Part shown: one piece after another, positions 6,001 through 9,000 of the stretch
How positions within the stretch are numbered: position 1 is the first letter of the stretch
Layout of the letters: the number at the start of each line of letters is the position of its first letter
Origin: an uncultured Candidatus Peribacteria bacterium
Lineage (GTDB): Bacteria > Patescibacteriota > Gracilibacteria > RBG-16-42-10
DNA: 64,000 nt
Reading direction: 5' to 3'
NCBI GenBank assembly: GCA_964514565.1
Contig: CAZERA010000001.1
Coordinates: forward strand, 1-64,000
Made by a program: the position numbers

Positions 6001-9000
6001 GGTTTTTGAAGGATTATGATGTAGTGATTTTTTCAGGTAATTCTCTTTCGGCAGTCAAAAACGTAAAAGGCAAACGCATACTCTATTGCCACACTCCTCC
6101 CCGCTACGCCTTCGACCAGCTTGATAATTATAGCAAACGTTTCCCTAGTTTTATGCGACCATTGTTTCGCATGGGAGTAAGCATCATTCAAAAGTCATTT
6201 GAGAAAAATCTACGCGCCATGGATGTGGTAATTGCCAATTCAGCCACGGTAGCAAAACGACTGAAAGATTATTTTAATATCGAAGTGCCCATCGTCTATC
6301 CACCGTGTGACATTATTGCCAATCGCAATTTAGAACGAAAACCACAAGATTATTTCATTAGCTGGGCCCGACTAGAACCAATGAAAAGAATCGATGTTTT
6401 GATCGAAGCATTTAAACAAAGACCCAATCGAAAATTAGTAATTGCTTCTCACGGTAGTCTCAAAGAAAAATTGATCGAACAAGCAAAAGGATATCCCAAC
6501 ATCAGCTTTGTTGGTTTGATTTCAGATGACGAACTATCGCAGTCATTAGCAGGAGCTTTGGCCAGTATCTACATCCCAATCAATGAAGATTTTGGTATGA
6601 CCCCATTGGAATCAATGGCGGCAGGTACCCCTACGATCGGTGTACGTGAAGGCGGATTACTAGAAACGATCGACCACATGAAGAATGGTTATCTGTGTCC
6701 TGCAAACCCCACACCAGAAGACATCCTCAAAGCCATCGACACCTTCACACCTGAGCTTTCTCTCAGTATGGAAACAGCCTGCAAAGAACAATCCAAAAAG
6801 TTCAGCAAAGAAAGATTCCTCACTGCAATGGATAAAATTGTTCTAGGCAAATAAAAAACAGCTTGGAGTAAAAATATTCTTTCCTCCAAACTGTTAATTG
6901 TAAATTGTTAACTAAACAGCGGGAACTCTTTAGTTAGGCTTTCCACTGCTTTCTTTTCACCAAAAACTAGAACACCAAGGAAGCCAATATCTTCTAGCTT
7001 CTTCGCTTCTTGTTTTTCTTTTACCTTCTCATCATTGCTACTTTCACGCATCTCTTCAGTGAAACAAGTCACGACTAAGTCTTGCGCTTCAGCAAGCTTC
7101 TTGAGATTAATTAAATCTGCTTTTTGGCCAGTTGATTTCATCATAATCGCGTGCTGAATATTCATCGGAATATGTTCGCCATCACTGGTAGTAGAATGAT
7201 CAATATAGATCAATTTCTGCCCCTCCCGAGCGCCTAGTGAAGCTGATAAATGAGCTGCGGCATTAAGCTTTGACCACATTGGGATATCTGTAGTATTGAG
7301 AATAACTGCATGCGCTACCATCGTTTTTTTTGATTTAGCATTAGCACTATCTTGGCTACGGATGTGAGGGAATGTCACACATTCACGAATATGTTTGCCT
7401 AGTAAAAATGATACGAAACGCTCACTAGTACCAAAACCAGCCATTGGAGGCATACCGTATTCCATTGCTTCTACATACTTGGTATCCATGAACTGTGCTT
7501 CTTCATTGCCTGCATCACGGGCTTGTTGCTGTTGAGAGAAGCGCCCAAACTGATCGATCGGATCATTGAGCTCACTAAATGCTTTGCCTAGCTCTGCTCC
7601 TCCAGCTACCACCTGAAAACGTTGCGTTAGCTGAGGATGTTCAGGATCACGTTTTGCTAGTGGTTCTAACTCTACTGGTGGCAAAATCAAGAAAAAAGGA
7701 TGAACTGTATTTACACGTGCTTTCTTCCATAGTTTATCCAATACAGTGGCCATGCCCATCGAGGGATCGAGGTCCTCAATACCAACACTCTTTGCTAATA
7801 CACAAAGCTCTTCAATACTTTTACCTTCGGTATCAATCTTGCCTTCAGAAAAATAACGAACCGCTTCAAAGTAAGGAATCTTTGGCCATCCACCAACTAA
7901 TTCCCAACCATTCTTTTGTGCTTCGTCAGTACTACACCATTCTCCCCAGTTAATAGTACGACCATGGTAATCAACTTGAGTCATAGTACCGAGCAGTTCA
8001 TTCACTACCCGTTGATACACACGTTTAGAAAACGTCATTGCCCATTCATAATCACGATAAGCGATATACCACTCGATCTGTGTATATTCCTGAAGATGCT
8101 GTGGACTAGATCCTTCATTGCGAAAAATACGTCCAATCTCATAAACAGCTTCAAATCCACCAGCAATCAGTTTCTTGAGTGGCAATTCCAAAGAAATGCG
8201 TAAATACATTTCTTGATCGAGTTCATTATAAAAAGTAGTAAATGGCTTCGCTTCTGCCCCACCAGGTACGGCTTCAAATACTGGACACTCTACTTCTAGA
8301 AATCCCTCCTTGGCCATTTCTTCACGCCAAATCGCCCAATACCGGGCTTTCATTTTGACTACATCACGCACAGATCGCTCAGCTTCATCCTTGGTATTCA
8401 TCTTGAAATCTGCCACCCGATTCATGTAGCGAGATTCAATATGTTCATATTCCATTTTGTCTGGCAATGGACGAAGTGCTTTAGTCAAAATCAAATAACT
8501 AGTGACAAAAATACTTGGTTCACCTGTTTGAGAACGCTCTAAGTATCCCGTTAGTTGGAGATAATCCCCTTCATCAATCAAAGTTTTGAAATCAGCATAG
8601 CTAAGTGCTGCTGTATCTGGAGGCAACATATCTAGCTTGAATACTGCCTGAAAACCAGTTGGTAAACTTTCATCTTCAATCTGAGCAAAAGCAATTTTAC
8701 CGCTGAGACGTTTAGACTTTACTCGTCCAATCACAGTAAAAGACTTCGAAGTATTACCAACTAAATCACTAGTACTAACATCAAATAATTGTTTGGTTTC
8801 AGCCAAGGTGGCATCACGATGGCTCTTTACTGGATAAGGATCAACTCCCTTTGCTTTGAGCGCGTCGAGCTTATCAATACGTAGTTTCCTTTGTGATTCG
8901 AGAGAGGAATAGGAGTCGGCTGGATGCGCTTTTTGTGGCTGATTATTGTCCATAATAATGATGAAAATGACCGGAAGACAGTGGCAATATAAAGCATAAC

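What a model noticed while it worked through the whole genome (the two positions that open the first line are those of the whole stretch)
6908..8953. Class II LysRS fused to a DUF2000 domain
The only lysyl-tRNA synthetase (681 aa) ends in a DUF2000 domain (aa 545-681, C1:6911-7321), a family known only from one structural-genomics entry. The fusion recurs in several families of the class, including TGA-recoded ones, and in at least 24 protein clusters world-wide.
Evidence so far: Pfam tRNA-synt_2 plus DUF2000; lysS 405 bits; PDB 2GAX only; fused frames in 8 genomes of 4 families; 24 full and 5 partial fusions among the best 150 representatives.
(Added by a program. Inside this text positions count along the whole contig: contig position 1 is position 1 of the stretch shown here. 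"Call 12" and the like, gene names such as g00115 and contig names such as C1 are that model's own, and its searches are not shown. The text may have been shortened before it was handed on; [...] marks where a part breaks off. The agent that wrote the report below was given it as the finding of a first reader that could run no searches.)

Follow-up and report, generated by a model that had tools for sequence, protein, structure and literature searches.

The report
Lysyl-tRNA synthetase with PTH2-like tail
The only lysine-charging enzyme of this tiny-genome bacterium carries an extra end domain shaped like a peptidyl-tRNA hydrolase, a widespread but undescribed fusion that may be a new way of cleaning up wrongly loaded lysine tRNA.

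Summary
Window 6908-8953 (-) is one 681-aa frame: OB fold, class II LysRS core and a C-terminal DUF2000 domain (aa 545-681). It is the only LysRS found in the 1.12-Mb, 92.7%-complete genome.

New here:
- An AlphaFold model of the domain (pLDDT 95.9) matches only Atu0240/2GAX (Z 17.5) and archaeal/human peptidyl-tRNA hydrolase 2 (Z 14.0). The next hit has Z 4.6, so the PTH2-like fold is now shown rather than recalled.
- The fusion is far commoner than reported. It occurs in 128 protein clusters, in 28 of 401 sampled genomes of the phylum, and in 22 of 24 fetched loci of the class (5 only if TGA is read through).
- Some relatives add AlaX-like, B3/4 or HDIG domains.
- The domain tree rejects a single fused clade (AU p 0.00125).
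- Canonical Pth is kept in all 6 fused genomes tested.
- No paper in the held library mentions the family.

Best reading (about 0.45): a cis-acting hydrolase of aberrant aminoacyl-tRNALys esters, most likely proofreading of lysine look-alikes. No activity was tested. Rivals are peptidyl-tRNALys recycling, a non-catalytic binding module, and a small-molecule role. New variant of a known kind; interest 0.7.

The parts
6908..8953 (-). Whole gene: LysRS-DUF2000 fusion, 681 aa plus stop codon (6908-6910)
   Evidence: ORF list and translation
8486..8737 (-). OB-fold anticodon-binding domain, aa 73-156
   Evidence: Pfam PF01336, 43.1 bits
7361..8383 (-). Class II catalytic core, aa 191-531. Motif 2 (R278-N279-E280) and motif 3 (G506...R512) are invariant in 67 fused homologues.
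   Evidence: Pfam PF00152, 183.7 bits; invariant columns of alignment A2; residues checked
7322..7360 (-). Short linker, aa 532-544 (RSQDSANAKSKKT). K540 and T544 are conserved in the main fused clade.
   Evidence: pLDDT <50 at aa 536-541 in the full-length model; conservation
6911..7321 (-). DUF2000 domain with PTH2-like alpha/beta fold, aa 545-681
   Evidence: Pfam PF09391, 76.9 bits; model pLDDT 95.9; 2GAX Z 17.5 and PTH2 1WN2 Z 14.0; Foldseek
7211..7279 (-). Helix alpha-1 of the domain (about aa 559-581). It carries the family-wide near-invariant N564 (7262-7264) and H568 (7250-7252), the candidate active or binding site.
   Evidence: Near-invariant columns in A1 and A2; secondary structure; codons checked

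Best explanation
The gene encodes the cell's housekeeping class II lysyl-tRNA synthetase. A short linker of about 10 residues joins it to a PTH2-fold domain (DUF2000).

I propose that the OB fold and catalytic core hold tRNALys while the appended domain hydrolyses the 3'-ester of aberrant products and spares correct Lys-tRNALys. The aberrant products are most likely tRNALys charged with lysine look-alikes, such as thialysine- or ornithine-type analogues. That would make it a cis post-transfer proofreading module, which class II LysRS otherwise lacks. Free-standing DUF2000 proteins would do the same in trans.

Shown: the architecture, an intact synthetase core, sole-copy status, the PTH2-like fold, a conserved Asn/His site, and recurrence.

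Inferred: that the domain is catalytic, that its substrate is a tRNALys ester, and which acyl group it removes.
For: 1. Fold. The only structural relatives are Atu0240 and peptidyl-tRNA hydrolase 2 enzymes, whose known chemistry is cleavage of the acyl-ribose ester at a tRNA 3' end. 2GAX scores Z 17.5. 1WN2 scores Z 14.0 (108 residues aligned, rmsd 2.5). The next hit scores Z 4.6 among 48,161 chains. In Foldseek, 12 hits have E<=1e-3, and every one listed is 2GAX or a PTH2 entry (1RLK, 2ZV3, 3ERJ, 1XTY, 1Q7S, 1WN2).

2. Partner specificity. The fusion partner is always LysRS.
- All 120 listed clusters are LysRS fusions.
- 29 of 37 long representatives carry both domains.
- 22 of 24 class loci are fused.
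- Of 56 metagenome loci, 33 are fused under table 11, 5 need TGA read-through, 10 are cut at a contig end with a LysRS remnant in frame, 7 have no upstream DNA, and 1 is free-standing.

3. The fusion probably arose or was rearranged more than once. The AU test rejects one clade for the 51 fused rows (p 0.00125, delta lnL 84).

4. In some homologues the same polypeptide also carries known aminoacyl-tRNA editing domains or an HDIG domain. These are AlaXM-like (P0059), PheRS B3/4 (P0170) and HDIG (P0097, P0151).

5. The fused enzyme is the only LysRS in the window genome and in 5 of 5 other 98-100% complete genomes from 5 families. LysRS motifs 2 and 3 are invariant. The domain therefore cannot destroy the cognate product indiscriminately.

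6. Canonical Pth1 is present in 6 of 6 fused genomes tested. This argues against a plain Pth replacement.

7. A polar site is conserved across fused and free forms. N564 is kept in 93-100% of rows, H568 in 85-100%, M635 in 83-100% and T674 in 87-100%. The main fused clade adds its own set (W560, N598, H601, K606, T632, K651) behind a long stem of 1.49 changes per site, SH-aLRT 100.

8. A lead for a lysine-antimetabolite link. In 2 genomes of one family a free DUF2000 gene follows lysO on the same strand with gaps of 16-18 nt. LysO exports lysine and the toxic analogue thialysine, whose toxicity is ascribed to misincorporation during translation (PMC8498466, abstract and introduction passages).
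Against: - No activity was measured.
- The PTH2 Pfam model does not match the domain: no hit at E<=0.1 on the protein and none at E<=1e-3 in the genome. Whether PTH2's catalytic residues have equivalents could not be tested, because no model coordinates were available.
- Atu0240, the solved member, has Phe at the near-invariant His position.
- None of the 33 free-standing DUF2000 genes examined in this phylum lies next to lysS or a tRNA gene. Their neighbours are heterogeneous.
- The lysO link rests on one family, so it counts as one evolutionary event. I would have flagged any lysine- or tRNA-related neighbour, so chance is not negligible.
- The domain is not basic. Mean net charge is +0.3 in 131 fused domains and -1 in the window.
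- From recalled knowledge, class II LysRS is held to rely on pre-transfer editing, so post-transfer editing would be unprecedented for it.
Confidence: 0.45

Rival explanations
1. tRNALys recycling. The domain is a peptidyl- or N-acyl-Lys-tRNALys hydrolase in the PTH2 manner. It frees tRNALys from dropped-off or N-blocked species on the very enzyme that recharges it.
For: PTH2 is the only functional relative by fold. Diacetyl-Lys-tRNALys is the standard Pth substrate (PMC11994314, methods passages). [quoted passage not shown] 1996 in that paper's reference list. The genome has single genes for tRNALys(UUU) and tRNALys(CUU).
Against: Canonical Pth1 is present in 6 of 6 fused genomes tested. The PTH2 model does not match. 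The co-fused AlaX-like and B3/4 domains act on free-amine aminoacyl-tRNAs, not on peptidyl-tRNAs (family knowledge).
Confidence: 0.2
2. Non-catalytic module. A PTH2-derived domain that only binds the (aminoacylated) CCA end or the acceptor arm. It would raise tRNALys affinity, or protect Lys-tRNALys and hand it over to EF-Tu.
For: Many synthetases carry appended tRNA-binding domains. Mukai 2017 (PMC5370408, passage in section 3.2) notes a C-terminal B2/OB-like domain on some Microgenomates LysRS. Sequence-level identity with PTH2 is lost.
Against: The domain is not basic. Strict conservation of Asn, His and Thr across fused and free forms looks more like a catalytic or ligand pocket. Free-standing family members exist in many bacteria without a synthetase.
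Confidence: 0.12
3. Small-molecule role. DUF2000 binds or hydrolyses a lysine derivative or an aminoacyl-nucleoside/adenylate-type antimetabolite rather than tRNA. On LysRS it would detoxify an inhibitor or supply lysine.
For: Free DUF2000 genes sit beside exporters or regulators of small-molecule responses:
- lysO in 2 of 33 CPR loci;
- EamA/SMR-type membrane proteins in 2 more, with a third possible;
- NUDIX adjacent in 1 locus and two genes away in 2;
- a divergent AraC-family regulator in 4 of 4 actinomycete loci, with MFS transporters nearby in 3 of 4.
Against: The fold's only known chemistry is on tRNA esters. The exclusive and repeated choice of LysRS, together with AlaX, B3/4 and HDIG domains, points to the tRNA end. 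The neighbour themes are weak and drawn from few lineages.
Confidence: 0.12
4. Stand-in for D-aminoacyl-tRNA deacylase (DTD), removing D-Lys or other D-amino acids from tRNA.
For: DTD (PF02580) was not found in the window genome, nor in any of the 28 genomes of the phylum sample that have a fused frame.
Against: DTD is rare in the whole sample (35 of 401). About 2.4 of 28 would be expected, so 0 is unremarkable, and related genomes are not independent. 4 of the 13 genomes with a free DUF2000 also have DTD. Fusion to one synthetase does not suit a general D-amino-acid deacylase.
Confidence: 0.04

Closest known systems
Peptidyl-tRNA hydrolase 2 (PTH2, PF01981; e.g. P. horikoshii 1WN2, human Bit1 1Q7S, S. 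solfataricus 1XTY)
   Same: Same alpha/beta fold. Z 14.0 with 108 aligned residues at rmsd 2.5. Foldseek probability 1.00, TM 0.59-0.71 on the target. A similar size of core.
   Different: No sequence-model match and 9-15% identity. The model has an extra beta-hairpin (aa 586-596). It is fused to a synthetase, whereas PTH2 enzymes are free-standing. Catalytic equivalence is untested.
Atu0240 / DUF2000 (PF09391, PDB 2GAX), structural-genomics protein of unknown function
   Same: Same family. 76.9 bits against a cut-off of 25; Z 17.5, TM 0.80/0.85.
   Different: Atu0240 is free-standing and has Phe where the family's near-invariant His (H568) lies. The main fused clade has its own conserved residues and a long stem.
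Appended or free aminoacyl-tRNA editing domains (AlaX/tRNA_SAD, PheRS B3/4, ProRS INS/YbaK, DTD)
   Same: The logic proposed here: a hydrolase attached to a synthetase that clears wrong esters from the bound tRNA. AlaX-like and B3/4 domains occur in the same polypeptides as DUF2000 in some homologues.
   Different: An unrelated fold. No editing domain is known for class II LysRS (recalled). No activity is shown.
LysX (MprF-LysRS fusion, NF002821)
   Same: Another bacterial LysRS fused to a domain that works on the Lys-tRNALys ester. The window's LysRS part scores 356 bits on that model's LysRS half.
   Different: LysX carries an N-terminal membrane lysyl-phosphatidylglycerol synthase (cut-off 742 bits, not met). 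Here the extra domain is C-terminal, soluble and PTH2-like.
Microgenomates LysRS with a C-terminal PheRS-B2-like domain (Mukai et al. 2017, PMC5370408)
   Same: A CPR LysRS with an extra C-terminal domain (passage read).
   Different: That domain is an OB-type B2 domain. DUF2000 is not mentioned in that paper.

Membership tests
Class II lysyl-tRNA synthetase (lysS) | N-terminal OB-fold anticodon-binding domain plus class II core of the D/K/N subclass | tested here: met
   PF01336 43.1 bits and PF00152 183.7 bits
Class II lysyl-tRNA synthetase (lysS) | Score over the curated equivalog cut-off | tested here: not met
   lysS_bact 405.4 against 427.6; PRK00484 420 against 468. Lys models are still the best hits by about 110 bits or more over EpmA, AspRS and AsnRS. 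Fused relatives pass: P0097 506.7, P0170 497.5, P0151 442.2; 4 of 5 handle genomes pass.
Class II lysyl-tRNA synthetase (lysS) | Class II motifs 2 and 3 intact | tested here: met
   R278, N279, E280, G506 and R512 are invariant in 67 fused sequences and present in the window
Class II lysyl-tRNA synthetase (lysS) | Acts as the cell's LysRS (no other copy) | tested here: met
   No second lysS-like frame above 117 bits and no class I LysRS above cut-off. The genome is 92.66% complete. Aminoacylation itself was not tested.
DUF2000 (PF09391) | Match over Pfam gathering score across the whole model | tested here: met
   76.9 bits against 25, model positions 5-132 of 133
DUF2000 (PF09391) | Fold of the solved member 2GAX | tested here: met
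   Z 17.5, 135 aligned, rmsd 2.1; TM 0.80/0.85
PTH2 (PF01981) | Sequence-model match | tested here: not met
   No PF01981 hit at E<=0.1 on the protein and none at E<=1e-3 in the genome. The profile of A1 reaches no PTH2 chain in the PDB.
PTH2 (PF01981) | PTH2 alpha/beta fold | tested here: met
   1WN2 Z 14.0. 1RLK, 2ZV3, 3ERJ, 1XTY, 1Q7S and 1WN2 at E 3e-5 to 3e-4, probability 1.00.
PTH2 (PF01981) | Catalytic residues of PTH2 in equivalent positions | not testable with these tools
   No coordinates or residue-level structural alignment were available. The PTH2 papers that name the residues were not held.
PTH2 (PF01981) | Hydrolysis of peptidyl- or N-acyl-aminoacyl-tRNA | not testable with these tools
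   Needs an enzyme assay
Aminoacyl-tRNA editing domains (functional class) | Selective deacylation of mischarged tRNA while sparing the cognate product | not testable with these tools
   Indirect only: sole-LysRS status, and co-fusion with AlaX-like and B3/4 domains in relatives

The most novel reading that the evidence does not exclude
DUF2000 is a previously unrecognised family of aminoacyl-tRNA proofreading enzymes derived from the PTH2 fold. On CPR LysRS it would be the first post-transfer editing domain of any lysyl-tRNA synthetase, clearing natural lysine antimetabolites (thialysine-type) from tRNALys. The thousands of free-standing DUF2000 proteins (Streptomyces, Agrobacterium, CPR) would be inducible trans-editing factors that work alongside amino-acid or antimetabolite exporters.
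Probability: 0.3. Interest if true: 0.85.

Novelty: new variant of a known kind. Interest (0 to 1): 0.7.

Why it matters
Class II LysRS is the textbook example of a synthetase without a post-transfer editing domain, and it is the route by which lysine analogues enter proteins. A hydrolase-fold domain welded to the sole LysRS of many ultra-small bacteria would, if catalytic, add a new editing (or tRNA-recycling) module to the known set. It would also show how organisms that scavenge amino acids protect translation.

The fusion is a 'Rosetta stone' too. It gives the first testable functional hypothesis for DUF2000, a widespread family with one orphan structure and, in the library searched, no literature at all.

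The test is cheap: express the protein with and without the tail and run deacylation assays.

Tried and rejected
- Complex prediction of the LysRS core (aa 1-535) with the DUF2000 domain (aa 540-681): 'no answer', score 0.00 in two runs. This gives no information either way.
- The full-length AlphaFold model (pLDDT 90.6, pTM 0.73) gave no coordinates or PAE. I could not see where the domain sits relative to the active site.
- A profile of 46 DUF2000 sequences against PDB sequences reached only 2GAX. PTH2 was not reached by sequence.
- ESM Atlas returned only DUF2000 clusters at 0.87-0.89 and ran no structure search.
I used a single actinomycete-type protein instead, which gave almost only Streptomyces loci.
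- 'Free-standing close relatives' (P0136, P0138, P0150, P0152, P0153 and others). I first took them for split forms. They begin at the Met of the LysRS C-terminal F-P-x-M-[KR]-P stretch. Their metagenome relatives are fused wherever upstream DNA exists. I therefore treat them as truncated gene calls and dropped 17 such rows from the tree.
- DTD replacement: no support.
- Pth1 replacement: rejected, since Pth1 is present in 6 of 6 genomes tested.
- A basic, generic RNA-binding tail: not supported by charge.
- Window neighbours are uninformative: two glycosyltransferases convergent with the gene and an SLH-domain protein divergent from it. Promoter and terminator scans were at shuffle level.
- The order around the lysO-DUF2000 genomes holds only 13 genomes, so that link could not be widened.
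The Powers 2005 PTH2 paper is not held.
- Supplements of papers were not consulted.
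Full report
**1. The observation**

Window 6908-8953 (- strand) is a single ATG-initiated frame of 681 aa without internal stops. Pfam finds three domains:
- an OB-fold anticodon-binding domain (aa 73-156, 43.1 bits);
- the class II D/K/N catalytic core (aa 191-531, 183.7 bits, E 5.7e-54);
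- DUF2000 (aa 550-680, 76.9 bits against a gathering score of 25, E 1.9e-21).

NCBIfam ranks the lysine models first: PRK00484 at 420 bits and lysS_bact at 405.4 bits. Both are just under their cut-offs of 468 and 427.6. The next non-Lys synthetase models score under 130 bits.

Motif 2 (R278-N279-E280) and motif 3 (G506...R512) are invariant in an alignment of 67 fused homologues. I picked those 67 from about 140 fused sequences in hand. The synthetase half therefore looks active.

The gene stands alone. It is convergent with two glycosyltransferase genes and divergent from an SLH-domain protein gene. Promoter and terminator consensus hits are at the level of shuffled sequence.

**2. Is it the only LysRS?**

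The genome (G000) has 1,117,677 bases in 7 contigs, is 92.66% complete and 0.48% contaminated.
- The lysS_bact model hits this frame (405.2 bits). The only other hits are two other class IIb synthetase frames, at 117.2 bits and at 102.4 plus 44.5 bits.
- The class I LysRS model gives nothing above 19.9 bits, against a cut-off of 27.
- DUF2000 occurs once.
- tRNALys(UUU) and tRNALys(CUU) are each present once among 41 tRNA genes.

The same holds in 5 of 5 other fused genomes of 98-100% completeness from five different families. In each, the only lysS match at E<=1e-40 lies in the fused frame, and no class I LysRS is above cut-off.

The fused protein must therefore be the housekeeping enzyme. 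Whatever the tail does, it cannot simply destroy Lys-tRNALys.

**3. What the tail is**

By sequence, the PDB holds one relative, Atu0240 (2GAX): E 7.2e-5 with the single sequence and 1.2e-24 with a 46-sequence profile. An AlphaFold2 model of aa 537-681 built on that alignment is very confident (mean pLDDT 95.9, pTM 0.88).

Foldseek against the PDB returns 2GAX (TM 0.80/0.85, E 4.6e-11). After that, the hits listed at E<=1e-3 are all peptidyl-tRNA hydrolase 2 structures: 1RLK, 2ZV3, 3ERJ, 1XTY, 1Q7S (human Bit1/PTH2) and 1WN2. They have probability 1.00 and E from 3e-5 to 3e-4. The next unrelated hit has E 0.17.

An independent all-against-representatives search agrees. 2GAX scores Z 17.5. The P. 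horikoshii PTH2 1WN2 scores Z 14.0 (108 residues, rmsd 2.5). The third best of 48,161 chains scores Z 4.6.

Membership in the PTH2 sequence family is not. PF01981 does not match the protein or anything else in the genome. I could not test whether PTH2's catalytic positions are preserved, because no coordinates are exposed and the relevant papers are not held.

Across 49 free-standing and 138 fused domains, a small polar set is kept:

| Residue | Main fused clade / other fused / free |
|---|---|
| N564 | 99 / 100 / 93% |
| H568 | 100 / 100 / 85% |
| M635 | 100 / 100 / 83% |
| G665 | 99 / 100 / 93% |
| T674 | 98 / 100 / 87% |

N564 and H568 lie on the first helix, which in the model follows the first strand as in PTH2. 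Atu0240 itself has Phe at the His position.

**4. How common is the fusion?**

- A word-indexed search with aa 540-681 found 128 clusters (90% identity) at E<=1e-3. All 120 listed carry PF00152 plus PF09391. Their domains are 43-93% identical to the window's. The sources name them as Abawacabacteria, SR1, Magasanikbacteria, Doudnabacteria and 'Patescibacteria group'.
- An exhaustive HMMER search of 1.84 billion representatives with the domain gave 116 hits. Of the 37 longest, 29 have both domains. Two of these are named Dojkabacteria LysRS.
- In an even sample of 401 genomes of the phylum, DUF2000 is present in 39. There are 28 matches in open frames of 524-1049 aa and 13 in frames of 144-179 aa. 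One family accounts for 17 of its 23 genomes. Five of the 28 were checked to hold lysS in the same frame.
- In 301 genomes of the class, 60 have the domain. These include 5 of the 7 other members of the window's own family.
- I fetched 24 of the class loci. 22 hold the LysRS core and DUF2000 in one frame: 17 under table 11 and 5 only if TGA is read through (G490, G426, G500, G445, G600). One (G476) has a single in-frame TAG between the two halves. One (G431) is free-standing on a contig end.
- A metagenome scan seeded with five apparently free-standing close relatives gave 56 loci:
  - 33 fused under table 11;
  - 3 fused and 2 partly fused only with TGA read through;
  - 10 cut by the contig end with a LysRS remnant in frame;
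  - 7 without upstream DNA;
  - 1 truly free-standing.
- Those 'free' seeds all begin M-[KR]-[PK], the Met of the LysRS C-terminal F-P-x-M-[KR]-P stretch. I take them to be truncated gene calls.

**5. One fusion or several?**

I built a tree of 100 DUF2000 domains.
- 51 rows are fused. They were thinned from 138 by taking every fourth of P0002-P0121 plus all later ones.
- 49 rows are free-standing.
- 22 fragment rows and 17 likely truncated fusions were left out.

The tree puts 44 fused rows, the window's among them, in one clade with SH-aLRT 100 and a long stem of 1.49 changes per site. Seven other fused rows sit among free-standing forms: P0197, P0170, P0169, P0162, P0242, P0190 and P0174.

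The tree needs 4 changes of state. Starred branches alone do not force more than 1. However, the AU test rejects the best tree in which all fused rows are held together (delta lnL 84, p 0.00125).

Caveats: only 144 columns; a quick search; and I had seen the first tree before running the test, although the group was defined by architecture.

In the class sample both kinds are seen fused to LysRS. These are domains scoring like typical free DUF2000 (about 107-128 Pfam bits; G467, G433, G492, G416, G423, G560) and the divergent 'LysRS-type' (about 44-84 bits). Repeated fusion, or fusion followed by fission, with the same partner argues for a real functional coupling to LysRS.

**6. Further clues from relatives**

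Some fused proteins carry a third module:
- P0059 and P0132 add an AlaXM-like alanyl-tRNA editing domain after DUF2000 (NF040865, 94.5 bits, below its cut-off of 300; PF01411 C-terminal end plus PF07973).
- P0170 has a PheRS B3/4 domain (72.6 bits) between LysRS and DUF2000.
- P0097, P0141, P0149 and P0151 add an HD/HDIG domain.

From established knowledge of those families, AlaX and B3/4 domains are hydrolases of mischarged aminoacyl-tRNA.

G560 has two DUF2000 domains in tandem. Forms of about 800 aa have an N-terminal extension of about 170 aa with no family match.

Canonical bacterial Pth is present in the window genome and in 5 of 5 other fused genomes. The tail is therefore not a replacement for it.

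DTD is absent from all 28 fused genomes of the phylum sample. It is also absent from 366 of the 401 genomes overall, and it is present in 4 of the 13 genomes with a free DUF2000. This gives no signal.

**7. Neighbours of free-standing DUF2000 genes**

I examined 33 loci in this phylum (13 plus 20). None lies next to lysS or a tRNA gene.
- In two genomes of one family the gene follows a two-ORF lysO (PF03956, 179-184 bits) on the same strand, with gaps of 16-18 nt.
- In two other loci a small EamA/SMR-type membrane protein is adjacent, and a third is possible.
- NUDIX genes are adjacent once and two genes away twice.
- The rest is heterogeneous.
- In 4 of 4 actinomycete loci examined, out of 80 kept, a divergent AraC-family regulator sits directly upstream. 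MFS transporters are nearby in 3 of those 4.

LysO exports lysine and, with higher apparent affinity, the natural antimetabolite thialysine. Thialysine's toxicity is ascribed to misincorporation in translation (PMC8498466, abstract and introduction passages).

I rate the exporter theme a lead and not evidence. The lysO case is a single lineage, and I would have noticed any lysine-related neighbour.

**8. Mechanism proposed**

Shown:
- a complete, sole LysRS;
- a short flexible linker (pLDDT <50 at aa 536-541);
- a compact PTH2-fold domain with a conserved Asn/His-bearing helix;
- exclusive and probably repeated fusion to LysRS;
- company of known aminoacyl-tRNA hydrolase domains.

Inferred: the domain hydrolyses the 3'-ester of tRNALys species that should not enter translation, while tRNALys is held by the synthetase. 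I favour proofreading of tRNALys charged with lysine look-alikes (0.45 for the ester-hydrolase-in-cis reading, with proofreading as its most likely form). My reasons:
- Pth1 is retained.
- The co-fused domains are editing domains.
- The organisms are scavengers with a class II LysRS. From recalled literature (Jester 2003, seen only as a citation), that class accepts analogues.

The rivals are:
- recycling of peptidyl- or N-blocked tRNALys (0.2), which is attractive because Pth-deficient E. coli dies of Lys-tRNALys starvation (title in a reference list);
- a non-catalytic CCA/acceptor-binding module (0.12);
- a small-molecule role (0.12);
- a DTD stand-in (0.04).

The complex prediction gave no answer. 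The domain is not basic.

**9. Known or new?**

The following searches of the held library (8.1 million PMC papers plus bioRxiv) found nothing relevant:
- 'DUF2000' found no paper.
- 'PF09391', 'Atu0240', '2GAX' and 'IPR018988' found 3 papers, all irrelevant.
- 'lysyl-tRNA synthetase' with 'Candidate Phyla Radiation' found 2 papers. One (Mukai 2017) mentions only a B2-type C-terminal domain on Microgenomates LysRS.
- 'Pth2' with 'LysRS', 'lysyl-tRNA synthetase' or 'fused' found nothing relevant among the 15 papers listed of 82.
- 'aminoacyl-tRNA synthetase' with 'Patescibacteria' and 'editing domain' found 0 papers.

Subscription journals are largely outside that library. Database annotations ('DUF2000 family protein', 'lysine--tRNA ligase') show that the sequences are deposited but not interpreted.

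A synthetase with an appended hydrolase is a known kind. This domain, on this synthetase, is a new variant.

**10. Verdict**

Function remains inferred. Interest 0.7.

Noticed in passing
L181 (G476:C1:270389-274766), locus position 2944: In one genome of the class a single in-frame TAG separates the LysRS end (...FPTMKPENE) from the DUF2000 domain. No ATG, GTG or TTG follows before the domain starts, although AAGGAG follows the stop. This could be stop-codon read-through giving two isoforms, a recent nonsense mutation, or a sequencing error.
   Followed up: partly
L162 (G560:C6:22265-26764): An 824-aa LysRS frame carries two DUF2000 domains in tandem: a shortened one at aa 514-643 and a full one at aa 683-824.
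   Followed up: no
L170, L174 and class matches G314, G127, G488, G518, G443, G627: In several families the fused DUF2000 matches only Pfam model positions 1 to about 115 of 133. This variant has a diverged or missing last strand and helix, the region that holds the otherwise near-invariant Gly and Thr.
   Followed up: no
P0105, P0043, P0017, P0033 (about 800-840 aa fused LysRS): An N-terminal extension of about 170 aa before the OB fold has no Pfam or NCBIfam match.
   Followed up: partly
L016 (G187) 6001-7394 and L017 (G132) 2018-3343: A two-ORF lysO (PF03956) and a free DUF2000 gene lie in an apparent operon, with gaps of 16-18 nt. This is seen in both DUF2000-bearing genomes of one family.
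   Followed up: partly
L021, L024, L074, L094 (Actinomycetota/Streptomyces/Kitasatospora): The actinomycete DUF2000 (about 185 aa, with a roughly 50-aa N-terminal extension) is always paired with a divergent AraC-family regulator, and MFS transporters are often nearby. At least 515 relatives were found in genome contigs.
   Followed up: partly
window 18368-18783 (+): A tmRNA gene with tag peptide AKDSLEAARNVEYTNAFAMAA.
   Followed up: no
G000:C1:479357-479870 (outside the window): Three tRNA-Ser(GGA) calls lie in tandem about 130 nt apart. Two of them have the anticodon at position 30, so they may be odd or partial copies.
   Followed up: no
window 9096-10991 (+): A 631-aa protein with three C-terminal SLH domains and a long Ser/Thr/Asp-rich repetitive N-terminal part, divergent from lysS. 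Probably a cell-surface protein.
   Followed up: no
G218:C1:127897-128415: The Pth1 match in this complete fused genome contains one in-frame TAA. The gene may be broken, or the base may be miscalled.
   Followed up: no
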